From a virus: 12,623 nt of DNA. The position numbers were made by a program, and so were the translations under genes. The stretch lies in UHGV virus genome UHGV-0265509; one strand, 5' to 3'. Below are positions 998 through 11,063 of this stretch, in pieces; the first letter of the stretch is position 1; each line of letters opens with the position of its first letter. The notes beneath the pieces were generated by a model. That model made no database searches and was not told where the DNA came from. It saw nothing but the letters and a program-made list of their open reading frames with translations.

Positions 998-1690
998 TTA
1001 GTAATCCTCTTCCTGATTGACTACCGATTGGATACGCGTTGCGACTTCGCTAGTGTCCAGGTCAGTTTCGTCGACCTTATCCACAAGTTTCTGTACTTTA
1101 CGTACATGGGATTCGGTAACATCAAAACGACCACGATCGGCTAACAGCAACGTTACCATATCCTTACGCGTAACCAACAGTTCTTCTTCAGGTAGGTGTA
1201 GGGTTTTGTCTAACAGCCCAGAATGCATGAAGTTTTCCAGTAAGCGTTCTTCTCCCTGGTCAAAATCATAACGTTCGTTAGGTGCAGCAACGAAAGCGTA
1301 ACCGAAATAGTTTTCTTCTGTCTCACGTAGCGACTTGATGATTTTATCACCGTGCTGACAGAAATCACTTAACGTGTAGTCGTCAAGCGTTGCCACGATG
1401 GTTTCTGCCTGTACACCATTATCCGTTTCGTAGAGATGCGCAACCCACAGCTTCCAGTTACGTGGTTCGTCAAACAGACCACCGATTAACATATCAGTTG
1501 CTGCCATGCGCATACGCGGTGACGTTGTAAACTGGAAACCACGACCTGCGTACGGGCCGATAGGACGAATAGAGCTACCGACGAAAGTAATGCGGTTTAA
1601 CGCATTTTCAGCGATGGTGTGCGCGGTACGGTTAGCAGCTGCTTTCGGGTTATACTTTTTGTTACGAGGTTTCTTTTGTTTGGTAGCCAT
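998..1690 (-). CDS. hypothetical protein (230 aa) with a basic N-terminus and acidic C-terminus
   Basis: ATG at 1688-1690 overlapping the upstream stop (TAATG); N-terminal KQKKPRNKKYNPK basic tract, acidic C-terminal tail (VVNQEEDY). No recognisable catalytic motif. Confidence 0.55.
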   Translation of the reverse strand: MATKQKKPRNKKYNPKAAANRTAHTIAENALNRITFVGSSIRPIGPYAGRGFQFTTSPRMRMAATDMLIGGLFDEPRNWKLWVAHLYETDNGVQAETIVATLDDYTLSDFCQHGDKIIKSLRETEENYFGYAFVAAPNERYDFDQGEERLLENFMHSGLLDKTLHLPEEELLVTRKDMVTLLLADRGRFDVTESHVRKVQKLVDKVDETDLDTSEVATRIQSVVNQEEDY

Positions 1691-2172
1691 TATTTATTCT
1701 CAACTAATACTGTGTGAAATGCTTTATAAAGAGCTTGACGTGTCTCAACTAACGCAGGGCGATTAATCAAGCACATGTATCCGATTTTCCAAGACCAGTA
1801 AGAAGTGTCGTCGGTATTTAATCCGTAGTCAGGTTCAAGATATACCAAATCCGTGTACGCATCTGGTATATAAAGACGACACAAACTAAGATTCCAGAAA
1901 TTCGGTAAATCCGATTTTGCAAGTTCAGTCATAACCTGCATTGGAATCTGACTTCCAATAACGTCTGTTGCAAAAACGATATGCAGATTTCCAGGTGACT
2001 TAGAATACATACCGTGACCTTCACAACTCCACATTGTCGCCAAATGTGGATGGTCGTTGATTAGCTTACAGGTGTCACGAACTCCTTTTTCAATATAGCC
2101 GTTTTTGATTGCAAGCTGAGCACGCTCTTTAAATGACGCCAGTCTTTCTGCGTCAACAGAAAATTGAATCAT
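1690..2172 (-). CDS. hypothetical protein (160 aa)
   Basis: ATG at 2170-2172 in ATGA overlap with the upstream gene; uninterrupted ORF; function not recognisable. Confidence 0.55.
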   Translation of the reverse strand: MIQFSVDAERLASFKERAQLAIKNGYIEKGVRDTCKLINDHPHLATMWSCEGHGMYSKSPGNLHIVFATDVIGSQIPMQVMTELAKSDLPNFWNLSLCRLYIPDAYTDLVYLEPDYGLNTDDTSYWSWKIGYMCLINRPALVETRQALYKAFHTVLVENK

Positions 2173-2678: not shown

Positions 2679-3200
2679 CTACGGGTTAAAAGGTAACGGC
2701 TTGCAATCCCGCTTCTTCAACTCTTCTACTAACTCAGATAATGTACACCAACGTTTAAATTTGTTGTTGGCTTTAAAGTGACTGAGAATCTCCTCTACAC
2801 GCTCAATCGACCACTTCCCTTTACCCACGTTATCTAAATCTTTACGTAGCGAGAGCGTCTCAATGGTAAACGCTAACTCCGATGTGTCCGAGTGGTCGTA
2901 CAGTAGTCTTACTGGTGCAGATTGGTGAAGTGTAACACGCCACCCTGATTCCTTAGCCCAGTAAACATCTTTAATTCGACCACCGACGTCAATTACGGAA
3001 CTGATATAGCTCCACTCCTTTTCCAGTTTGTTCTCTTCAGCAGTTAATGCTTCTTCTAATCGTAAAGAATTAGGGGACGGAATCCACCAACCGTACTTAC
3101 CGTAATAATCATCTATTACAGTAATACCTTCGTAATACAGATATTGAGTTTTTGTATTAACGAATATTTCATCGCCAATTAAGACAGCGTTTATCTTCAT
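2679..3200 (-). CDS. hypothetical protein (173 aa)
   Basis: ATG at 3198-3200 in ATGA overlap with the upstream gene stop; uninterrupted ORF; function not recognisable. Confidence 0.55.
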   Translation of the reverse strand: MKINAVLIGDEIFVNTKTQYLYYEGITVIDDYYGKYGWWIPSPNSLRLEEALTAEENKLEKEWSYISSVIDVGGRIKDVYWAKESGWRVTLHQSAPVRLLYDHSDTSELAFTIETLSLRKDLDNVGKGKWSIERVEEILSHFKANNKFKRWCTLSELVEELKKRDCKPLPFNP

Positions 3201-3685
3201 CGTAAGTGCTTCCTGTAGAATAAGTCATACGCCTCCGATGTGGCGGTATCAATAGATCCTACTAAGGGAATAATATTCTTTTCGCTTATACCTGATGCCC
3301 AGGCCGCACGAGCAAAAGCTTGACCCGAACCCGTTGCCCAAACCGTGTTTTTATTCAGTACACGAGATTCAAATTTACCCTCTAGCAGTCCGAGCCAGTG
3401 TGTTTCCTCAGCTGTGTAAATGATAATCTGATCGTAAAACTGTTCTTTTTCGATAAGATCTTTAAATAACCCTTCAATCTTGGCTCGCTTTTCTTCAATC
3501 AAATATTTTTCTACTGCGACCATTATCGTATTTTTCCAGAGATCCGAGTCCAATACGCGTTCCCCAGTATAAACAACGAATTTGTTTTTGTACTTGTGTA
3601 ATTTAGGTGCCGCTTTAACTGTACCGCCGTAGTCAACCAACCGATCGGCTAAAATGTAATCGTTTGTTACTAAAACTGTTGTCAT
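3197..3685 (-). CDS. hypothetical protein (162 aa); possible HslV/proteasome-beta-like Ntn hydrolase
   Basis: Start taken at the internal ATG (3683-3685) preceded by GAGGTG SD and lying just downstream of a terminator, not the GTG at 3799 of the ORF track. N-terminus MTTVLVTNDY resembles HslV MTTIVSV (Thr nucleophile after Met removal); later TGSGQAFARAAWA resembles the HslV IGSGGPYAQAAARAL segment. Similarity judged by eye only. Confidence 0.4.
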   Translation of the reverse strand: MTTVLVTNDYILADRLVDYGGTVKAAPKLHKYKNKFVVYTGERVLDSDLWKNTIMVAVEKYLIEEKRAKIEGLFKDLIEKEQFYDQIIIYTAEETHWLGLLEGKFESRVLNKNTVWATGSGQAFARAAWASGISEKNIIPLVGSIDTATSEAYDLFYRKHLR

Positions 3686-3696
3686 CACACACCTCG

Positions 3697-3736
3697 AAGA
3701 AAAATAAAAGTACCCTCTCTCCGTTAGGAGAGAGGG
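3697..3736 (-). terminator. rho-independent terminator
   Basis: Perfect 10-bp stem CCCTCTCTCC / GGAGAGAGGG (3713-3722 and 3727-3736) with a 4-nt loop, followed on the transcribed (minus) strand by the U-rich tract UACUUUUAUUUUUCUU; lies directly after the stop of gene 3744..4013. Confidence 0.8.
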
Positions 3737-3743
3737 GCACTGC

Positions 3744-4013
3744 TTAAATCTTACGACTGCTACCGTAGCAGCCACGACCTGCTGTCGTTTTCGCAGCACT
3801 GACAGGTGCTAACGCAGCCATCGTACCATCGGTCTTAACAATGTGTAAGTTACTTACGCGAGCCAGACCTTTAAAGGTAATCTTCACACCCTTGCGTAAA
3901 CTCTTCACATCGTAACCGTCGAGTTTGAGTGTTTTGATTTTCTCAGGCTTACCTTCTTCGTAATAAGAAAGAACATTACCCGCACGTTTCTCAACAATGT
4001 AAATCTTAGCCAT
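3744..4013 (-). CDS. hypothetical small Lys-rich protein (89 aa), own promoter and terminator
   Basis: ATG at 4011-4013 with SD GGAG 9 nt upstream; sigma70-like promoter upstream and strong terminator immediately downstream; function not recognisable. Confidence 0.55.
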   Translation of the reverse strand: MAKIYIVEKRAGNVLSYYEEGKPEKIKTLKLDGYDVKSLRKGVKITFKGLARVSNLHIVKTDGTMAALAPVSAAKTTAGRGCYGSSRKI

Positions 4014-4058: not shown

Positions 4059-4087
4059 AATATATCTTAAGTTTTTTAGACTGTCAT
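4059..4087 (-). promoter_or_regulatory. sigma70-like promoter for gene 3744..4013
   Basis: On the minus strand: -35 ATGACA (plus 4082-4087), 17-nt spacer, -10 TATATT (plus 4059-4064). Sequence-only prediction. Confidence 0.35.
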
Positions 4088-4395
4088 TAACACAACGCAA
4101 TATTAACCGACTTACCAGGTAGCGGGAAATGCTGAAGCTCTATCGATAGAAGTTTCCTGTCAATAGTCAGTATTTCATCAACGTTGGGGGTAAGGCGGAA
4201 TACAGCACGCGGTAACGTGAAAGGCACGTTTGTCGAGCAGTTATTTAACAGCAACTGATCCTGAGAATAGTCAATTTCTACCACCCTCGCAATTACCCAA
4301 CGTTCGTGAATCTCGCCGCCTAGCGGTGCAGTTAGTGCCCGTTGCAAGCGCTGTAAATTCGTTTCGTCGGTATTAGTGTGGTTTTGGCTCGACAT
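4087..4395 (-). CDS. hypothetical protein (102 aa)
   Basis: ORF-track ORF 4087..4506 begins at a GTG inside the upstream gene; the internal ATG at 4393-4395 (MSSQNH..., weak GGGG SD) gives a 23-nt overlap with the upstream gene and is the more plausible start. Function unknown. Confidence 0.4.
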   Translation of the reverse strand: MSSQNHTNTDETNLQRLQRALTAPLGGEIHERWVIARVVEIDYSQDQLLLNNCSTNVPFTLPRAVFRLTPNVDEILTIDRKLLSIELQHFPLPGKSVNIALC

Positions 4396-4690
4396 AAGTT
4401 TCCCCAAACACGTATGCGGTTCCGGCTTCATTTGTCGGTTTAGCAACACACCACATCCATGCACCGGTTTCAGGGTTTTGCCAGGACAACAGAAGAGAAC
4501 CCTCACAGATTTCAGAGGTATCGACCTCAGGGTGGAACAACATGAATTCGTTCTCGTTGTCGTCTACTACGACGAATTGACCTTCTTCCACCCTTTCGAA
4601 CTTAGCAACACCTACTACAGTTGCTGGTTCCCCAACGGTAAATACCATTTCTTGTTTTGGTAAATCACGGTGAATCGCACTTAACCACAT
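4373..4690 (-). CDS. hypothetical protein (105 aa)
   Basis: ATG at 4688-4690 preceded by GAGGAA SD 8 nt upstream; first gene after the terminator at 4744-4785; function unknown. Confidence 0.5.
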   Translation of the reverse strand: MWLSAIHRDLPKQEMVFTVGEPATVVGVAKFERVEEGQFVVVDDNENEFMLFHPEVDTSEICEGSLLLSWQNPETGAWMWCVAKPTNEAGTAYVFGETYVEPKPH

Positions 4691-4743: not shown

Positions 4744-4785
4744 CGTAAAAATAAATTCTCCCTCTCTCCAAACGGAGAGAGGGAA
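4744..4785 (-). terminator. rho-independent terminator (same stem sequence as the 3713-3736 hairpin)
   Basis: 12-bp stem containing the identical CCCTCTCTCC / GGAGAGAGGG core (4760-4769 and 4774-4783), loop AAAC, followed on the minus strand by AAUUUAUUUUUACG; directly after the stop of gene 4789..5295. Confidence 0.8.
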
Positions 4786-4788
4786 GGT

Positions 4789-5295
4789 TTACAGTACGTT
4801 TTCTTCGCGATCGTCTACTAACACAGAAGTAATCACATAACGCGCTAAGCGACTACGTGCTTCTTCCGTTTCTTCTTCAGAAGGTAGCTGTTCGCCCGCA
4901 GGCGCACACAACGTTAGCCCAGACTCACGAAGCTGTTCGGCATAGTCTTCTACGGCTGTGTCGAACGTACCACGAATACCTGCTACCGCATCCATAATTT
5001 CGTCATTCGGAATAATGGATTCTTTTAGCACAGCGTGAGCATCTGTAGGCTCCACCATTTGCAGGTTCTGTTCTACCAGCAATGCCTGTTTCGCTAAGCT
5101 GTCGGTGATAAAGCAAGACAGAATCTTTTCGAAATCGTCTAACGAGAATTCGGTGTCTTCAGATGCCCCGGTAATCAATTGCCCGTAGCGATTAAAGAAT
5201 TCTTTACAACGTGTTTCGTAGTCAGCTTCTAAGTCGCGAACGCCGAGATCAAAATCGTGCTGCTCCAGCTGATTAAAATCCAGAGTCTCTTTCAT
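4789..5295 (-). CDS. strongly acidic hypothetical protein (168 aa); candidate DNA-mimic/anti-restriction protein
   Basis: ATG at 5293-5295 with SD GGAGA; by hand count roughly 39 Asp+Glu against roughly 14 Lys+Arg, including a C-terminal SEEETEEA tract; last gene of the Dam operon before the terminator. Function inferred only from composition and context. Confidence 0.55.
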   Translation of the reverse strand: MKETLDFNQLEQHDFDLGVRDLEADYETRCKEFFNRYGQLITGASEDTEFSLDDFEKILSCFITDSLAKQALLVEQNLQMVEPTDAHAVLKESIIPNDEIMDAVAGIRGTFDTAVEDYAEQLRESGLTLCAPAGEQLPSEEETEEARSRLARYVITSVLVDDREENVL

Positions 5296-5570: not shown

Positions 5571-6344
5571 TTAAAAGATAAAATGGCCAGTTAATGCTTC
5601 TACTTCAACACCAGACATTGCTGGAGGTGCTGAGTATGGAAAAGTAAGACGCACGGTTGCACCCTTTAAATACGCAATACGGTAGTATGTGGTCAAGAGC
5701 GCAATCCCGTAAGTACAGTCGTTATAGAAGAAACCTTCGGTTGCAAACGTCTTTTCGTTGATTTTCGAATAGACTAAGATACCTTCAACTTTACCGTCTT
5801 TACGACAGCACAGCCCTTCAGCAGCCCCAATAGCTAACAATCCCAGGCAGTATGTATCTAAACTGACATTAACCACCTTAGGGATCGTAAACGTTTCTTC
5901 TAACGTTAGAGATTCAATATCAACTACATCAGGTAAATCGGTGCGAACTTCGGGTTCTTCAGTAAACGTCAGGTCATAGTCGATAGACGTCGGCTGCATA
6001 CCCAAATACACCATTAACTGGTCGCGACGTTTTAGGTCGTTGGCAGGGTATGTGACATCAAACACCTCCACTTTTAACAAACGTTTGAGTTGTGCGAAAT
6101 TAATTTTCTTCTTCGCAAACACAACGATTGCCGACATGTAGAAAAACTTACCGTCGGCACGACCGGAGAAGATTCCTTGTAGCTGATTCGTGTTCGAAAG
6201 AATGATAAAGGTCGGATCTTCAGACTCGCGAATGACGTCCTTTTCCAGTAACCCTTTCCGTACACGGGTTAGTGAAACCATTTTCCCGTCGACACCAATT
6301 GCTAAATGGTCATTACGATAATCGTGAATATCCACTATGCGCAT
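5571..6344 (-). CDS. hypothetical protein (257 aa), translationally coupled to Dam
   Basis: ATG at 6342-6344 shares one base with the dam stop codon (TAATG at 6342-6346); uninterrupted 257-codon ORF; no recognisable motif. Confidence 0.6.
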   Translation of the reverse strand: MRIVDIHDYRNDHLAIGVDGKMVSLTRVRKGLLEKDVIRESEDPTFIILSNTNQLQGIFSGRADGKFFYMSAIVVFAKKKINFAQLKRLLKVEVFDVTYPANDLKRRDQLMVYLGMQPTSIDYDLTFTEEPEVRTDLPDVVDIESLTLEETFTIPKVVNVSLDTYCLGLLAIGAAEGLCCRKDGKVEGILVYSKINEKTFATEGFFYNDCTYGIALLTTYYRIAYLKGATVRLTFPYSAPPAMSGVEVEALTGHFIF

Positions 6345-7159
6345 TAGAGCACTCCCAGTAATTCAGTCACCGTTTTCCGAGCAGCGCCAGACGCACCCAT
6401 ATAGCGACCGACCTCAATACTGCGCCACTCAAAACCGTAATAAATTTCTCGGGTGAGCAGGGTGTCTGCATTTGACAACACGACACTGTTGCCACGTTCC
6501 ACCTGCTGCTGTAGTAACTTGGCTAATTCTCGATGATCCGTTTGTGAGAATTCTTTACGGTGGTATTGCGCATGTTTCGCGGTATCCGATAACGGAATAT
6601 ACGGAGGATCAGCATAAATCACAGCATCCTCAGGCGTCCGCGCTAATACGGAACGAAAGTCTTCACAAACAATTTCCAGATAATCAACTTCTGCGCAACG
6701 TTTAGCCCAATCCCGAATTTCTTCTAACGGATAATAAACCCCATTCGGGTAACGTCCAAACGGAACATTGAACCCACCGCTACCGTTATAACGACACATC
6801 CCGTTATAACCGTGACGCATTAAGTATAAAAACATCGCTGCCCGTTCAACTTCTGACATTGTTTTACCGCTATTAAACAGCTCACGACGCTCCATATACT
6901 TTACAGTGGTATTACCGTCTAAGAACAACGGCTGCGACGCAGCGATCAGTTCTTCAGGCTGTTCACGCGCAACGCAAAGTAAGCGTATCAAATCAGGGTT
7001 AGAATCCGATAAAATATACCGGCTGTAATTCGTATTTAGGAAAACAGACCCTGCACCCACAAACGGTTCTACAAAGGTTGTACGTTTAGGTAAGACCTTT
7101 TGTAATTCCCCTAAAACACGTGTTTTCCCACCCATCCACTTAATAATTGGTTTCCGCAT
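6344..7159 (-). CDS. dam: DNA adenine methyltransferase, Dam family (GATC N6-adenine MTase)
   Basis: 271 aa, near-colinear with E. coli Dam by eye: N-terminal KWMGGK (Dam KWAGGK), AdoMet-binding FVEPFVGAGSVFLNT, LYLMRHGYNGMCRYN...FNVPFGRY, catalytic DPPY, C-terminal RKTVTELL. ATG at 7157-7159. Confidence 0.9.
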   Translation of the reverse strand: MRKPIIKWMGGKTRVLGELQKVLPKRTTFVEPFVGAGSVFLNTNYSRYILSDSNPDLIRLLCVAREQPEELIAASQPLFLDGNTTVKYMERRELFNSGKTMSEVERAAMFLYLMRHGYNGMCRYNGSGGFNVPFGRYPNGVYYPLEEIRDWAKRCAEVDYLEIVCEDFRSVLARTPEDAVIYADPPYIPLSDTAKHAQYHRKEFSQTDHRELAKLLQQQVERGNSVVLSNADTLLTREIYYGFEWRSIEVGRYMGASGAARKTVTELLGVL

Positions 7160-8138
7160 TATATCCGCCTTGTAACGATGACACTTCGTCGCCTAACACC
7201 AACTCGACACGATTTTTCCGTCGCTCCCAACTGACGACGTCATCGTCGCGCACTAAAACAAATTCGTAATCGTAGGGCCGAAATTTAAATAATTCGACGA
7301 CCAGGTGTCTAAATGCAGGGTTGTTATTGAAACACCCTATCTCTAATGGTGCCGCTGTTGTCGATGCAATCTGCAGAGCACGGTATAACAAAGTCCGTCC
7401 GATACCACGCCCCCGATGTGTTTCACTTACCGCAATGGCTTTTAATTCACACTCGTTAAGATTACGTAATTTAACTTGCACCACGCCCACAACATCGTTG
7501 CCGTCCATCCAAACGTAGGTGTGGTGGTTGACGTGACGTACTAATTCCACCAACGTTTCGACTTGTGGCATGATTTGTCGTGTGCGGCCCACAGGGTCAG
7601 CGTTGATGTTTTCAACGACGCTCGTACCCAAAAGCAACATAAGCTGTTCGCGTTGTGTGGCAGTTAGCTCTTTATAAAAATCGCCAGAAATATTCTTCAC
7701 GTTCGTTGGTAGTGCGACATCCAGTAACTTACGTGTGCCTAAACGGTACGTAGAGTGGGCGTGTCTAAATCCCAGGTCATTAAGCTCAGAGATTTCTTCT
7801 ACACCACTGGCAATTCGGTTAAGGTACGTAAAACCGGTATAGTCGAGTACCAGTAGTAGGTTCAGTTTGTTCAAACAACCCGGTACAATCTCATGCATAT
7901 ACAAGCAGTGTAACGTTGGGTCGCCGTAAATGTGTTTTGTGATGATAAACCCTTGAATTGTTTTTCCTTTTTGTAAAGAGAACGTATTCAGTTCACTATT
8001 GCACAACGCCTCACGAATCACCGCACCGTTAGGGCCCGATAAACAAGCTTGGAGTTGAGGGTTGCGAATGTCTCTGCGTGCTAAACGTCCTACTGTTAAA
8101 TCCGTGGCGGTACGTTCTATAGTCTTCCTAAAAGCCAT
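7140..8138 (-). CDS. two-domain protein (332 aa): unknown N-terminal domain fused to a C-terminal GNAT acetyltransferase domain
   Basis: ATG at 8136-8138 with SD AAGGAG; C-terminal part carries the GNAT acetyl-CoA motif (LKAIAVSETHRGRGIGRTLLYRALQIA, i.e. R-x-x-G-x-G); the first ~200 residues have no recognisable motif; 20-nt overlap with the dam start. Confidence 0.65.
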   Translation of the reverse strand: MAFRKTIERTATDLTVGRLARRDIRNPQLQACLSGPNGAVIREALCNSELNTFSLQKGKTIQGFIITKHIYGDPTLHCLYMHEIVPGCLNKLNLLLVLDYTGFTYLNRIASGVEEISELNDLGFRHAHSTYRLGTRKLLDVALPTNVKNISGDFYKELTATQREQLMLLLGTSVVENINADPVGRTRQIMPQVETLVELVRHVNHHTYVWMDGNDVVGVVQVKLRNLNECELKAIAVSETHRGRGIGRTLLYRALQIASTTAAPLEIGCFNNNPAFRHLVVELFKFRPYDYEFVLVRDDDVVSWERRKNRVELVLGDEVSSLQGGYNAETNY

Positions 8139-8185
8139 TTTAATTACTCCTTAAAAGGTCGTCTCAAAACAATACACTATAGCTG

Positions 8186-8220
8186 TAAAAACAAAAAAGA
8201 ATGGGGAACCGAAGTTCCCC
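8186..8220 (-). terminator. rho-independent terminator
   Basis: 7-bp GC-rich stem GGGGAAC / GTTCCCC (8203-8209 and 8214-8220); the RNA loop is UUCG, followed by AUUCUUUUUUGUUUUU on the minus strand. Confidence 0.8.
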
Positions 8221-8319
8221 TATATTAGTTAGCCGAACAGTCCCTCATCAAAATTCAAAGTGGGGGCTTCATGTAGTATTTCCATTGCCATGATTTTTAC
8301 TCCCGAAACGGTTCTTCAA

Positions 8320-8676
8320 TTAATCTCTGAAACCCAATGTTTGTTTAAACACGTTGCTGAGGTATCTCGGTTTTACTGTATTGATGTAATCTATAGCTGA
8401 CTCTGCAGTCACTTTAACCACACAGCGGCCGTTAGTGGACTCAAAGGTCACGCTGTATTTCAAACGCAACATGTCAGCAACTTTCATTATCGTCCCCAGC
8501 CCTAAACGTTCTGCGTGCTCGTTCTTAATTGAAGAAATAACTGACGGCGAAACTCTTGCTAGTTGAGCTATCTCACGTTGGGTAATTTTACCGCTCACCA
8601 AATGTCGAATGATGTAGCCTAGACGAATAACTAACTGTTCTTTTGCAATGGTGATGGTATTATGTTTATACGCCAT
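8320..8676 (-). CDS. XRE/Cro-CI family helix-turn-helix transcriptional regulator (118 aa)
   Basis: Start taken at ATG 8674-8676 (SD AGGA) rather than the GTG at 8730. HTH signature ITQREIAQLARVSPSVISSIKNEH is typical of XRE-family repressors. Confidence 0.6.
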   Translation of the reverse strand: MAYKHNTITIAKEQLVIRLGYIIRHLVSGKITQREIAQLARVSPSVISSIKNEHAERLGLGTIMKVADMLRLKYSVTFESTNGRCVVKVTAESAIDYINTVKPRYLSNVFKQTLGFRD

Positions 8677-8709
8677 GGTATCTAATCCTAATCTGTAAAC
8701 GTGTCGTAA

Positions 8710-8728
8710 GAGATTATATTGTAATCTC
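8710..8728. promoter_or_regulatory. inverted repeat GAGATTA-N5-TAATCTC overlapping a consensus -10 (TATAAT, minus strand, plus 8713-8718); candidate autoregulatory operator/promoter of the XRE gene
   Basis: 7-bp arms at 8710-8716 and 8722-8728; perfect TATAAT on the minus strand inside the repeat; the -35 is weak (ATGTTA). About 35 nt upstream of the XRE start. Confidence 0.3.
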
Positions 8729-8745
8729 ACTAAGGTAACATCTAT

Positions 8746-8789
8746 CTGAGAAAAAATAAAATATAGGTACCACCGTTGGGTGGTACCTA
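8746..8789 (-). terminator. rho-independent terminator
   Basis: 11-bp stem (8764-8774 and 8779-8789, core GGTACCACC / GGTGGTACC), loop of 4 nt, followed on the minus strand by UAUAUUUUAUUUUUUCUC; directly after the stop of the kinase gene. Confidence 0.8.
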
Positions 8790-8794
8790 AGCGG

Positions 8795-9418
8795 TTAGTT
8801 TGCTAAAATGTGCGTAACAATCTCTGCGGCTTTCAAACGGTAATCGTCATTCTGCGTTACCGGTAATAACGTGTGAAGACAACCGCCTTCTGTTAAGATG
8901 TGGTGTGCAAAACGATAATGGTCACGTAAACCATCCCAACATTGGTTGTCTTTTAGATACTTAACAGTAAGTACCTCATCATCCCAATTCTTACCTTGTT
9001 CTTCTACACGTTTCTTAAATCGTGTTAACGCTGTTGGGTAATCAACATCTGTCCAAACATAAAGGTCAGGAGTGTGGAAATGACGAGTTAGCTTACGTTG
9101 GAAAACCACGTCCTTACCATCTGTCCCCTGATAAACAATCGTTGAAGGACAGAAGCGATCGAAAATAACGACATCGTATTCATCAACGACATGGTCCAAC
9201 GTGTGAAGGAAATCATCACACATTGCTTCAGCAATTTTTGTTTTCGAGGCAGACTGTACAACCAAACTGCGTGCACGAATGCCCGCCTCAGTTTCAGACG
9301 TCGGATGGTTCCGAATACAAACTTTTAATCCTGCGGATTCCAACATCGCTTTTACCATTTTACACAACGTTGATTTCCCAGAAAAATCAGGACCATCAAT
9401 AGACACTGTCTTAAGCAT
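8795..9418 (-). CDS. tmk: thymidylate kinase (dTMP kinase) family nucleotide kinase
   Basis: 207 aa; P-loop SIDGPDFSGKST (E. coli Tmk IEGLEGAGKTT), RNHPTSETEAGIRARSLVV (Tmk TREPGGTQLAEKLRSLVL), FDRF...STIVYQG (Tmk GDRH...STQAYQG), PDLYVWTDVD (Tmk PDLTLYLDV). Monocistronic, between two terminators. Substrate not determinable from sequence. Confidence 0.75.
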   Translation of the reverse strand: MLKTVSIDGPDFSGKSTLCKMVKAMLESAGLKVCIRNHPTSETEAGIRARSLVVQSASKTKIAEAMCDDFLHTLDHVVDEYDVVIFDRFCPSTIVYQGTDGKDVVFQRKLTRHFHTPDLYVWTDVDYPTALTRFKKRVEEQGKNWDDEVLTVKYLKDNQCWDGLRDHYRFAHHILTEGGCLHTLLPVTQNDDYRLKAAEIVTHILAN

Positions 9419-10152: not shown

Positions 10153-10524
10153 TTAGAACCCCTCAAGAACAGCTTTCACAAATTCGTAAACCGTGCGTCG
10201 GTGTTCTTCAAGCGGATAAACAAACTTAGAATAATCGTTGTTCCAGACAACCGGATAGAGGTCGCCGTCACAACTTAAATAGCTCTTACGAACCATGTAA
10301 TAATCTAAACCTACACGGAAGTTTAACGACAGACTACCGTGTTTACTACAAACGTGTAGCTGGAGCGATTTCACACCGTCGTGGGTTGGTGATTCAATCG
10401 TTTCCGCATACAATACATCCGAACACTGTTCTATAACGCTAACGACATCTCTGAGGTTGTTGTCTGCATCGATGGTCGCCTTTCGGAGAGCGTCGGTGTA
10501 TTGCTGAAGTTCTCGATAGAACAT
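10153..10524 (-). CDS. hypothetical protein (123 aa)
   Basis: ATG at 10522-10524 with SD GGAG 9 nt upstream; the start lies 94 nt inside the upstream ORF in another frame. Confidence 0.5.
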   Translation of the reverse strand: MFYRELQQYTDALRKATIDADNNLRDVVSVIEQCSDVLYAETIESPTHDGVKSLQLHVCSKHGSLSLNFRVGLDYYMVRKSYLSCDGDLYPVVWNNDYSKFVYPLEEHRRTVYEFVKAVLEGF

Positions 10525-11063
10525 CCTGCTAATCTCCTGTCTCTACCGTAAGGTAGAGGAAATGCTTTGTGTTCAAATTCTGCAACGACATACGCAGGAT
10601 AGAACAAAAGGTATTTATAGAACGTAGCCAACGTAACGTCTTTCGGGGTGGCTAAAAAGTAATTAAGATCGGGGTTGTCTGGAAAAGCAAAATGCAACCC
10701 TGTATATACCTGGCCTTTATACTCCCCATTAAAGGGCGTCACTGCACATCGTGGGTGTGTCGGCTCGACATGTAACCAACGACTCCCAACATGATAAACA
10801 GCGCGTACTGTGGCGTTTCGAGTTTTACCCAAGTAACGGCAGCGAATATTCTTTTCCCATGCAACACGTTGCGCGGGTGAACCCAGAGAAACAAACCGTG
10901 TTAAAGCCTCGGGCGTAAAGTAATCAAAAATGCCTGTCGGTAAACACCAACACGCTTTATCGATTCGTACCACTCTCCAACCAGGACGAAAACCCACAGC
11001 GTAACGCTCTACACCAAAAGTATATCTAGACCCGTCATGAAACGGTACGAATCTTGCAGCCAT
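10431..11063 (-). CDS. hypothetical protein (210 aa)
   Basis: ATG at 11061-11063, 1 nt after the GNAT gene stop; Trp/Tyr/Phe-rich; C-terminal ~30 codons overlap the next gene and contain a hairpin, so the true 3' end is uncertain. Confidence 0.5.
   Translation of the reverse strand: MAARFVPFHDGSRYTFGVERYAVGFRPGWRVVRIDKACWCLPTGIFDYFTPEALTRFVSLGSPAQRVAWEKNIRCRYLGKTRNATVRAVYHVGSRWLHVEPTHPRCAVTPFNGEYKGQVYTGLHFAFPDNPDLNYFLATPKDVTLATFYKYLLFYPAYVVAEFEHKAFPLPYGRDRRLAGCSIENFSNTPTLSERRPSMQTTTSEMSLAL

What the first reader, a model, noticed from the sequence alone, without database searches (positions are those of the whole stretch)
3197..3685. Possible HslV/proteasome-like Ntn hydrolase in a phage-type operon
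With the ATG at 3685 the protein begins MTT, giving an N-terminal threonine after Met removal, the hallmark nucleophile of proteasome-family hydrolases. A later GSG-containing segment (TGSGQAFARAAWA) resembles the conserved HslV segment IGSGGPYAQAAARAL. A mobile-element-encoded proteasome-like peptidase would be unusual and could target host or phage regulatory proteins. The similarity is judged by eye and could be coincidental.
Basis: partly seen in the sequence, partly recalled or inferred. Interest (0 to 1): 0.5.

Follow-up and report, generated by a model that had tools for sequence, protein, structure and literature searches.

The report
Jumbo-phage HslV/proteasome-like threonine peptidase

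Summary
Window 3197..3685 (- strand) is a real 162-aa gene that starts MTT and contains TGSGQAFARAAWA.

- A profile of the divergent family hits HslV and proteasome beta chains in the PDB (best T. brucei HslV, E 3.5e-8).
- Across 36 relatives (median about 25% identity among the divergent members), Thr2, Asp14, Lys28, Gly119-Ser/Thr120-Gly121, Asp146 and Ser/Thr149 never change. These correspond to proteasome Thr1, Asp17, Lys33, Ser129, Asp166 and Ser169.

It fails the curated HslV/Proteasome models, so it is a remote relative, not HslV proper. Its closest complete relative, a 222-kb element recorded as an Enterobacter plasmid, encodes no HslU-like ATPase. Distant Derbicusvirus homologues, which RefSeq already names "peptidase HslV family", do have one nearby. 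A translationally coupled 173-aa gene of unknown function always follows it.

Most likely it is an active N-terminal-threonine peptidase. Its partner and substrates are unknown. Verdict: a new member of a known kind, of moderate interest.

The parts
3197..3685 (-). CDS for the 162-aa HslV/proteasome-beta-like protein (MTTVLVTNDY...). Predicted catalytic codons: Thr2 3682-3680, Asp14 3646-3644, Lys28 3604-3602, Gly119-Ser120-Gly121 3331-3323, Asp146 3250-3248, Thr149 3241-3239.
3690..3695 (-). Shine-Dalgarno sequence GAGGTG. The GAGG core lies 6 nt before ATG 3685.
   Evidence: Equivalent SD motifs sit before the MTT start in five related loci.
3713..3736 (-). Intrinsic-terminator-like hairpin CCCTCTCTCC-N4-GGAGAGAGGG followed by a T-run. 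It ends the upstream gene and lies inside the spurious 5' extension of the ORF.
   Evidence: Conserved in the E. ludwigii relative.
2679..3200 (-). Downstream 173-aa gene of unknown function. Its ATG overlaps the HslV-like stop (ATGA at 3200-3197), which suggests translational coupling. A gene of 163-182 aa occupies this position in every lineage examined.
   Evidence: overlap. (same arrangement in L009, L010, CR5, Phobos). (L010 homologue E 3e-10; only motif-level similarity to CR5_122 and the L009 gene). (no identifiable family).
3744..4013 (-). Upstream 89-aa gene of unknown function (phrog_12339). It is weakly similar to the small genes upstream of the HslV-like gene in L010 and CR5.
   Evidence: phrog_12339, E 3e-16. 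(L010_us E 0.001; CR5_120 E 0.016). (85-97% identical in L001 and L011-L014).

Best explanation
The gene encodes a compact, propeptide-less member of the HslV/proteasome-beta (MEROPS T1, Ntn-hydrolase) superfamily. It is carried by an SPN3US-like (phiKZ-type) jumbo phage of Salmonella and Enterobacter.

Proposed mechanism:
1. Host methionine aminopeptidase removes Met1, because Thr at position 2 is a permitted residue.
2. The freed Thr, acting through its alpha-amine and hydroxyl, is the nucleophile.
3. Lys28 and Asp14 assist it (proteasome Lys33 and Asp17), together with Ser120, Asp146 and Thr149 (proteasome Ser129, Asp166 and Ser169).
4. The protein probably assembles into stacked rings with the active sites inside. 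It then cleaves unfolded polypeptides of host or phage origin during infection.

Shown here: the homology, the predicted fold, the start codon, and the strict conservation of the catalytic set.

Inferred, not shown: Met removal, ring assembly, peptidase activity and the substrates.

How substrates reach the active sites is open. This lineage has no phage HslU-like ATPase. My split is: about 0.35 that it borrows a host AAA+ unfoldase such as HslU; about 0.35 that it works without an ATPase, like BPH or Anbu, perhaps together with the coupled 173-aa protein; the remainder is undecided.
For: - Sequence, family libraries: PHROGs phrog_1040 'peptidase HslV family', E 2.3e-6 over residues 1-157.
- Sequence, solved structures: a profile of 22 divergent relatives against all PDB sequences gives T. 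brucei HslV at E 3.5e-8 (query 11-153 / chain 14-169). 23 of the 25 hits at E <= 10 are HslV or proteasome beta chains.
- Residue correspondence: that HslV alignment pairs D14 with Asp17, K28 with the Lys33 position, GSG with GSG, and D146/S149 with D..S. A separate archaeal proteasome beta hit pairs the N-terminal Thr-Thr with the mature N-terminus (all).
- Structure: AF2 without templates, on an MSA containing only family members, gives pLDDT 93.3 and pTM 0.88, with the order S1-S5, H1, H2, S6-S9, H3, H4, S10.
- Conservation: T2, D14, K28, G119, S/T120, G121, D146 and S/T149 are unchanged in 36/36 sequences, whose median pairwise identity among the divergent members is about 25%.
- Start codon: secured.
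- Phage origin: the window carries a phiKZ internal-head-protein gene. It is 86% identical to a 222-kb element that has tail genes and an S80 prohead protease, and whose DNA polymerase is about 80% identical to that of SPN3US. It also matches roughly 225-kb IMG/VR viral contigs.
- Ancestral link to an HslU-type ATPase: Derbicusvirus homologues sit 2.3 kb from a 687-aa protein with an AAA_2 domain (Pfam 5e-13) and an HslU/ClpX-like N-terminus.
Against: - No single-sequence hit to Pfam Proteasome, NCBIfam HslV or any PDB chain. Only 1 of 22 relatives touches PF00227, at E 0.13. The relationship is therefore remote and rests on profiles and a predicted structure.
- No biochemical data exist for this protein or, in the literature I could search, for any phage proteasome homologue.
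- No HslU-like or other AAA+ unfoldase gene was found in the whole 222-kb relative, nor within 10 kb of the gene in four IMG/VR contigs of the lineage.
- The region that forms the HslU-tail pocket in HslV (the H1/H2 helices, PMC6429459) is the most variable part of this protein.
- The Derbicusvirus HslU-like protein lacks the canonical hydrophobic C-terminal tail.
- Oligomeric state could not be modelled, and I could not measure active-site geometry in the model.
Confidence: 0.8

Rival explanations
1. It is a decoy or modulator of the host HslUV protease. The protein would mimic HslV in order to titrate host HslU, or co-assemble with host HslV, and so change host proteolysis rather than degrade substrates itself.
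For: The lineage has no phage-encoded HslU. The nearest structural relatives are HslV proteins. The Salmonella and Enterobacter hosts carry hslVU (established knowledge).
Against: A decoy would not need an intact active site, yet every catalytic position is invariant at a median of about 25% identity. The segment equivalent to the HslU-tail pocket is the least conserved part.
Confidence: 0.06
2. It is an Ntn enzyme with a non-proteolytic reaction. Examples would be a connectase-like Thr1 protein ligase/transpeptidase, or an amidase acting on a small molecule or on a protein modification.
Against: HslV and 20S beta score higher than connectase by both sequence and structure. According to PMC8665760, connectase lacks the first helix pair, whereas this model has H1 at 48-61 and H2 at 64-80. 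The full proteasome-type residue set is present.
Confidence: 0.08
3. It is a virion-morphogenesis protease or a head component, meaning a structural-assembly role rather than an intracellular regulatory one.
For: A phiKZ-type internal head protein gene lies 8 kb away in the same strand block.
Against: The related 222-kb genome already has the dedicated S80 prohead protease typical of phiKZ-like phages. The immediate neighbours are non-structural: a Dam methylase, GNATs, a thymidylate kinase and an XRE regulator. The gene is absent from SPN3US itself by tblastn, so it is an accessory gene.
Confidence: 0.03
4. The resemblance to HslV is chance and the protein is unrelated to Ntn hydrolases.
For: No single-sequence database hit. 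The first structure model, built on a shallow alignment, was uninformative (pLDDT 42).
Confidence: 0.01

Closest known systems
Bacterial and mitochondrial HslV (ClpQ), e.g. T. maritima 1m4y, T. brucei 4hnz, E. coli 1e94
   Same: - Best sequence-profile and structural match.
- Met-Thr-Thr start with no propeptide.
- Equivalents of Asp17, Lys33 and the Gly-Ser-Gly motif are present.
- Similar size (162 vs 171-176 aa) and the same secondary-structure order.
   Different: - Only about 15-21% identity.
- Fails the Pfam and NCBIfam curated models.
- No hslU found in the complete relative or within 10 kb in four viral contigs of the lineage.
- The turn between S1 and S2 is shorter: Asp is 12 residues after Thr instead of 16.
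- It has Asp at the Asp166 position, as in 20S beta and T. brucei HslV, where E. coli HslV has Cys159 (alignment plus the E. coli sequence verified).
- The H1/H2 region that forms the HslU-tail pocket is variable.
Derbicusvirus proteins that RefSeq names 'peptidase HslV family' (Cronobacter phage CR5_121, Erwinia phage Phobos gp123, EarlPhillipIV, Derbicus); PHROGs phrog_1040
   Same: - True homologues over the full length, 25-31% identity, tblastn E 2e-8 to 4e-5.
- Same MTT start and the same invariant residues.
- Syntenic setting: CR5_119 corresponds to window 4789-5295 and CR5_123 to window 998-1690.
- A gene of about 170-180 aa follows immediately.
   Different: - Derbicusviruses also carry an HslU-like AAA_2 ATPase (687 aa) 2.3 kb downstream, and a BCS1-like AAA ATPase upstream.
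- The window's lineage has neither.
- The window's subfamily is annotated only as 'hypothetical protein' wherever a source names it.
Phage proteasome homologues of Fuchs, Alva and Lupas 2021 (PPH, AAH, CPH; PMC8665760)
   Same: Compact 'group I' proteasome-like proteins encoded by tailed phages, with no propeptide and with the Thr1/Asp17/Lys33 triad.
   Different: PPH is about 140 aa and lacks helix H2. This protein is 162 aa and has both H1 and H2 in the model, so it is not PPH. An exhaustive HMMER scan of 1.84 billion representatives found only 17 relatives at E <= 1e-3, which suggests a small, isolated cluster.
BPH and Anbu (bacterial proteasome homologues with no known ATPase partner)

Membership tests
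Proteasome/HslV superfamily (MEROPS T1, Ntn-hydrolase alpha-beta-beta-alpha sandwich) | Four-layer alpha-beta-beta-alpha fold with the order S1-S5, H1-H2, S6-S9, H3-H4, S10 | tested here: met
Proteasome/HslV superfamily (MEROPS T1, Ntn-hydrolase alpha-beta-beta-alpha sandwich) | N-terminal Thr nucleophile exposed at residue 1 of the mature chain | tested here: met
   MTT start secured by the SD, the upstream terminator, upstream in-frame stops in relatives, and the PGAP call. Thr2 is present in 36/36 sequences. It aligns with the mature N-terminus of an archaeal proteasome beta chain. Met removal itself is inferred from known MetAP specificity.
Proteasome/HslV superfamily (MEROPS T1, Ntn-hydrolase alpha-beta-beta-alpha sandwich) | Catalytic Asp17 and Lys33, plus supporting Ser129, Asp166 and Ser169 | tested here: met
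   D14, K28, S/T120 (within G-S/T-G), D146 and S/T149 are invariant in 36/36 sequences. They align with the corresponding HslV residues in the HMMER alignments. Their spatial clustering in the model was not measured.
Proteasome/HslV superfamily (MEROPS T1, Ntn-hydrolase alpha-beta-beta-alpha sandwich) | Statistically significant sequence relationship | tested here: met
   Family profile vs PDB: E 3.5e-8 to T. brucei HslV, and 23 of 25 hits are HslV or proteasome beta chains. Single sequence vs phrog_1040: E 2.3e-6.
Proteasome/HslV superfamily (MEROPS T1, Ntn-hydrolase alpha-beta-beta-alpha sandwich) | Threonine-dependent peptidase activity | not testable with these tools
   Needs a biochemical assay.
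HslV proper (ClpQ, the peptidase of the HslUV protease) | Scores above the curated cut-offs of the HslV/Proteasome family models | tested here: not met
   No Pfam PF00227 hit for the window protein. Only 1 of 22 relatives hits it, at E 0.13. No NCBIfam hit for any of the 22 relatives.
HslV proper (ClpQ, the peptidase of the HslUV protease) | Encoded together with its HslU AAA+ partner (hslVU operon) | tested here: not met
   No tblastn or phmmer match to the CR5 HslU-like or AAA proteins, and no AAA+-type Walker A candidate, in the 222-kb relative. None within 10 kb in L001 or L011-L014. An HslU-like gene lies 2.3 kb downstream in the distant Derbicusvirus relatives.
HslV proper (ClpQ, the peptidase of the HslUV protease) | Dodecamer of two hexameric rings | not testable with these tools
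   No multimer prediction was available.
HslV proper (ClpQ, the peptidase of the HslUV protease) | Pocket between subunits that accepts the HslU C-terminal tail (H1/H2 residues such as Phe54, Phe57, Lys80, Gln114; PMC6429459) | tested here: inconclusive
   The equivalent segment (residues 46-118) is the most variable part of the protein. It could not be aligned residue by residue with confidence.
PHROGs phrog_1040 'peptidase HslV family' | Significant match to the family HMM | tested here: met
   E 2.3e-6 over residues 1-157. Relatives from CR5, L009 and L010 match at 1.6e-22, 2.2e-7 and 3.1e-8.
PPH, proteasome homologue of phages and their hosts (Fuchs et al. 2021) | About 140 residues and lacking helix H2 | tested here: not met
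   The protein is 162 aa, and the model has H1 at 48-61 and H2 at 64-80. The definition is taken from PMC8665760. No direct sequence comparison with PPH was possible.

The most novel reading that the evidence does not exclude
A nucleus-forming (chimallivirus-type) jumbo phage carries its own minimal proteasome. It would work without a phage unfoldase, either by capturing the host HslU or by pairing with the conserved, translationally coupled 173-aa protein as a new kind of activator or cap. It would selectively remove host defence or regulatory proteins, or police the proteome of the phage nucleus. For comparison, the HslU-family protein gp116 of Erwinia phage RAY is reported to be nuclear (bioRxiv 10.1101/2023.02.24.529968).
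Probability: 0.15. Interest if true: 0.65.

Novelty: new member of a known kind. Interest (0 to 1): 0.35.

Why it matters
- No phage-encoded proteasome homologue has been characterised experimentally in the literature I could search.
- This one is small (162 aa), needs no propeptide processing, and has an unambiguous catalytic signature.
- Its host genera, Salmonella and Enterobacter, are genetically tractable and carry hslVU mutable by standard methods.
- It occurs with a phage HslU-like ATPase (Derbicusvirus) and without one (this lineage). That contrast offers a natural experiment on how a viral peptidase obtains substrates.
- If active, it would show that jumbo phages bring their own compartmentalised proteolysis, with possible roles in host takeover or anti-defence.
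- At minimum, the result allows more than 50 'hypothetical proteins' in Salmonella- and Enterobacter-associated jumbo-phage contigs to be annotated.

Tried and rejected
- **Single-sequence searches found nothing:** Pfam (only a sub-threshold DUF5678 hit), PDB phmmer and NCBIfam. A profile of close homologues only also found nothing in the PDB. The signal appeared only after distant relatives from the exhaustive scan were added.
- **The first AF2 run was useless:** on 20 close homologues it gave pLDDT 42. The 36-sequence alignment fixed this.
- **hhalign against a single E. coli HslV sequence** aligned only the GSG segment (probability 47%).
- **Megablast against the phage collection** found nothing for the region or for the whole window.
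- **Downstream 173-aa gene:** I considered whether it is a second, alpha-like proteasome subunit. hhalign against the family profile gave probability 0.2%, and a PDB profile search gave only chance-level hits. Rejected.
- **A phage HslU:** I looked for one in the 222-kb relative by tblastn, phmmer and Walker A motif. The only P-loop proteins found were a thymidylate kinase and an SMC/Rad50-like protein.
- **PPH membership:** rejected on length and on the presence of H2.
- **Head-maturation role:** judged unlikely, because the relative has an S80 prohead protease.
- **Resources left unused:** I ran no further search on building an HslV profile, because searches already answered the question.
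Full report
**1. What is in the sequence**

On the - strand, ATG 3685 opens a 489-nt reading frame that ends with the TGA at 3199-3197. It encodes 162 aa beginning MTTVLVTNDYILADR, with TGSGQAFARAAWA at residues 118-130.

The mechanical ORF list extends the frame upstream to a GTG at 3799. That extension is not credible, for four reasons:
- It overlaps the end of the preceding gene (3744-4013).
- It runs through a 10-bp-stem hairpin followed by a T-run (3736-3713), which is a terminator-like site.
- A GAGG Shine-Dalgarno core lies 6 nt before ATG 3685.
- PGAP calls the same 162-aa product in a related record, and all 45 full-length close homologues are 162 aa.

In three distant relatives (CR5, L009, L010), in-frame stops lie a few codons upstream of the same MTT start.

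**2. Where the window comes from**

- Megablast finds nothing in the phage collection.
- The window is 86% identical over 94% of its length to a 222,441-bp circular record filed as an Enterobacter ludwigii plasmid.
- That record carries tail, tail-fibre and receptor-recognition genes and an S80 prohead protease. It also has a family B DNA polymerase that is about 80% identical to that of Salmonella phage SPN3US.
- The window itself encodes a phiKZ-type internal head protein, a Dam methylase, two GNAT acetyltransferases, a thymidylate kinase and an XRE regulator.
- IMG/VR holds viral contigs of about 151-225 kb carrying the same gene at 70-98% protein identity.

The element is therefore an SPN3US-like (phiKZ-type) jumbo phage.

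**3. Is it an HslV/proteasome-like protein?**

Single-sequence searches are nearly silent. Pfam gives only a sub-threshold DUF5678 hit. PDB phmmer and NCBIfam give nothing. The exception is PHROGs, where the protein matches phrog_1040 'peptidase HslV family' at E 2.3e-6 over residues 1-157.

Close homologues number 56. They are 67-95% identical, mostly from Salmonella-associated assemblies, and every name a source gives them is 'hypothetical protein'. They add little depth: a profile built from them finds nothing in the PDB, and an AF2 model built on them has pLDDT 42.

An exhaustive HMMER scan of 1.84 billion cluster representatives found only 17 relatives at E <= 1e-3. Every one starts MTT, or MTM in one case.

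With these distant relatives added (alignments A2 and A3), the picture becomes clear:
- **Profile against the PDB.** The family profile hits T. brucei HslV at E 3.5e-8, covering query 11-153. Of the 25 hits at E <= 10, 23 are HslV or proteasome beta chains.
- **Structure model.** AlphaFold2 used no templates, and its MSA contained no HslV sequence. It gives pLDDT 93.3 and pTM 0.88, with the canonical order S1-S5, H1, H2, S6-S9, H3, H4, S10.
- **Foldseek.** The top 50 PDB hits are all HslV, 20S proteasome subunits or BPH.

**4. Catalytic apparatus**

The 36 aligned sequences have a median pairwise identity of about 25% among the divergent members. The following columns never vary:

| Residue in this protein | Conservation | Proteasome/HslV equivalent |
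|---|---|---|
| Met1 | 36/36 | initiator Met |
| Thr2 | 36/36 | Thr1 |
| Asp14 | 36/36 | Asp17 |
| Lys28 | 36/36 | Lys33 |
| Gly119-Ser/Thr120-Gly121 | 36/36 | Gly128-Ser129-Gly130 |
| Asp146 | 36/36 | Asp166 |
| Ser/Thr149 | 36/36 | Ser169 |

Thr3 is present in 35 of 36 sequences and Arg15 in 34 of 36.

The HMMER alignment to T. brucei HslV places Asp14 on Asp17, Lys28 on the Lys33 position, GSG on GSG, and Asp146/Ser149 on D..S. The alignment to an archaeal proteasome beta chain places the Thr-Thr on the mature N-terminus. The numbering of the proteasome residues is established knowledge.

As in E. coli HslV, there is no propeptide. The nucleophile would be exposed by methionine aminopeptidase, which accepts Thr at position 2. 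This step is inferred from established knowledge and is not shown here.

Such strict conservation of exactly the catalytic set argues for an active enzyme, not a structural mimic. I could not read model coordinates, so the three-dimensional clustering of these residues was not measured.

**5. How it differs from HslV proper**

- It fails the curated family models.
- It is only about 15-21% identical to HslV structures.
- The Thr-to-Asp spacing is 12 residues instead of 16.
- It has Asp, not the Cys159 of E. coli HslV, at the Asp166 position.

Most importantly, its lineage seems to have no HslU:
- The HslU-like (CR5_127) and BCS1-like AAA (CR5_117) proteins of phage CR5 have no tblastn or phmmer match in the 222-kb relative.
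- The only P-loop ORFs found there by Walker A motif are a thymidylate kinase and an SMC/Rad50-like protein.
- None lies within 10 kb of the gene in L001 or in four IMG/VR contigs of the lineage.

I have not seen the full genome that contains this window, so this rests on close relatives.

The distant Derbicusvirus homologues (CR5_121, Phobos gp123 and others) are 25-31% identical and are named 'peptidase HslV family' by RefSeq. They lie 2.3 kb upstream of a 687-aa protein with an HslU/ClpX-like N-terminus and an AAA_2 domain. In that protein the Walker A motif and the rest of the AAA module are separated by about 400 residues, reminiscent of the HslU I-domain. It ends ...LRKTLRG, so it lacks the hydrophobic tail that activates HslV (tail sequences from PMC6429459).

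Local gene order is shared between the two lineages:
- CR5_119 corresponds to window 4789-5295.
- CR5_121 corresponds to the target gene.
- CR5_123 corresponds to window 998-1690.

**6. Conserved neighbours**

In every lineage examined, a gene of 163-182 aa follows immediately. In the window, L009 and L010 it overlaps the HslV-like stop codon by ATGA. In CR5 and Phobos there is a 2-nt gap.

The window's version (2679-3200, phrog_25529) is clearly homologous to the L010 one (E 3e-10). To the CR5 and L009 proteins it is similar only at the level of shared N-terminal motifs (M-K/D-I ... Y.TP.G[FW]..P[ST]).

It is not proteasome-like (hhalign probability 0.2%) and matches nothing in the PDB. It is a candidate partner, but this rests only on position and coupling.

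A small gene upstream (3744-4013) is also weakly conserved in position.

**7. Mechanism proposed**

Most likely this is an active N-terminal-threonine peptidase of the HslV/proteasome type. It would be made during infection and probably assembles into stacked rings.

- **Shown:** the homology, the predicted fold, the start codon, and the conserved catalytic residues.
- **Inferred:** Met removal, oligomerisation, activity and substrates.

For substrate delivery I cannot choose between two options:
- Borrowing a host AAA+ unfoldase. The hosts encode HslU, and the Derbicusvirus link suggests an ancestral HslU-type partner.
- ATPase-independent action, as proposed for BPH and Anbu, possibly with the coupled 173-aa protein.

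Against the first option, the segment that forms the HslU-tail pocket in HslV (H1/H2; PMC6429459) is the least conserved part of the protein. Mean column identity among close homologues is about 0.76 for residues 46-118, against 0.95 for residues 1-45 and 0.89 for residues 119-162.

The rival explanations all score lower, for the reasons given under each: an HslU decoy, a connectase-like or amidase activity, a head-maturation role, and chance resemblance.

**8. Comparison with what is known, and novelty**

Phage proteasome homologues are already on record:
- RefSeq and PHROGs names.
- The pSal-SNUABM-04 genome paper notes HslV ORFs without an HslU (PMC7823757).
- An HslU-family protein of Erwinia phage RAY localises to the phage nucleus (bioRxiv 10.1101/2023.02.24.529968).
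- Fuchs, Alva and Lupas 2021 define the phage-borne clusters PPH, AAH and CPH (PMC8665760).
- BFVD contains 38 viral structures with this fold at E <= 1e-3, many from jumbo phages.

This protein is not PPH, which is about 140 aa and lacks H2. Whether it belongs to AAH or CPH or forms its own cluster was not tested.

I found no experimental study of any phage proteasome homologue in the searchable library.

**Verdict.** The gene is a new, so far unannotated member of a known kind. It is of moderate interest as a tractable entry point to an unstudied class of viral peptidases.

Noticed in passing
window 3713-3736 and 4760-4783 (- strand): There are two hairpins with identical 10-bp stems (CCCTCTCTCC-N4-GGAGAGAGGG), each followed by a T-run. 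None is expected by chance. The 222-kb relative has exactly two copies, at the same two places. They bracket the two small genes 4373-4690 and 3744-4013, just upstream of the HslV-like gene. This may be a duplicated terminator, or the ends of a small inserted cassette.
   Followed up: partly
window 4098-4372: This stretch has no blastn match in L001, L011 or L013, but is contiguous in L012 and L014. It is an indel or replacement polymorphism between otherwise 80-96% identical phages. It overlaps the mechanical ORF 4087-4506.
   Followed up: no
whole window; NZ_CP134650.1 (L004-L008); contigs listed: This SPN3US-like jumbo phage genome is deposited as a circular, non-mobilizable 222-kb 'plasmid' of an Enterobacter ludwigii isolate. 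It also turns up as contigs of about 224 kb in assemblies labelled as several Salmonella serovars: Enteritidis, Dublin and Javiana. This suggests a carrier state, pseudolysogeny or a plasmid-like lifestyle, or frequent co-culture contamination.
   Followed up: no
window 3197-3685 compared with L011-L014: The HslV-like protein is only 70-80% identical in L013 and L014, while the genes on either side are 85-97% identical. The divergence is concentrated in residues 46-118, covering the H1/H2 helices and the following strands. This could reflect allelic replacement or fast evolution of a partner-binding surface.
   Followed up: partly
L002 8808-10871 (Cronobacter phage CR5_127) and L003 8832-10880 (Phobos gp130): This is a phage HslU-like ATPase of 682-687 aa. 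It has an HslU/ClpX-like N-terminus with Walker A near residue 60. The rest of the AAA_2 module is at residues 512-587, which implies an insertion of about 400 aa where HslU has its I-domain. The C-terminus (...LRKTLRG) lacks the hydrophobic HslV-activating tail.
   Followed up: partly
window 10153-10524 and 10431-11063 (- strand): Two ORFs (123 and 210 aa) overlap by 94 nt in different frames. The PLSDB gene table for the E. ludwigii relative lists a CDS for the first, but none for the stretch equivalent to the second (L001 18902-19441). This may be a pseudogene, an unlisted gene or a frameshift.
   Followed up: no
window 1690-2172 (- strand): This 160-aa ORF (phrog_7413) has a weak, sub-threshold Pfam match to the TYW3 methyltransferase (E 0.0019, 18 bits against a cut-off of 27).
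   Followed up: no
window 6344-9418 and L010 1257-4179: The block thymidylate kinase - XRE/HTH regulator - long GNAT acetyltransferase - Dam (D12) methylase keeps the same order in the window and in the distant metagenomic relative L010. In both, it lies upstream of the HslV-like gene.
   Followed up: no
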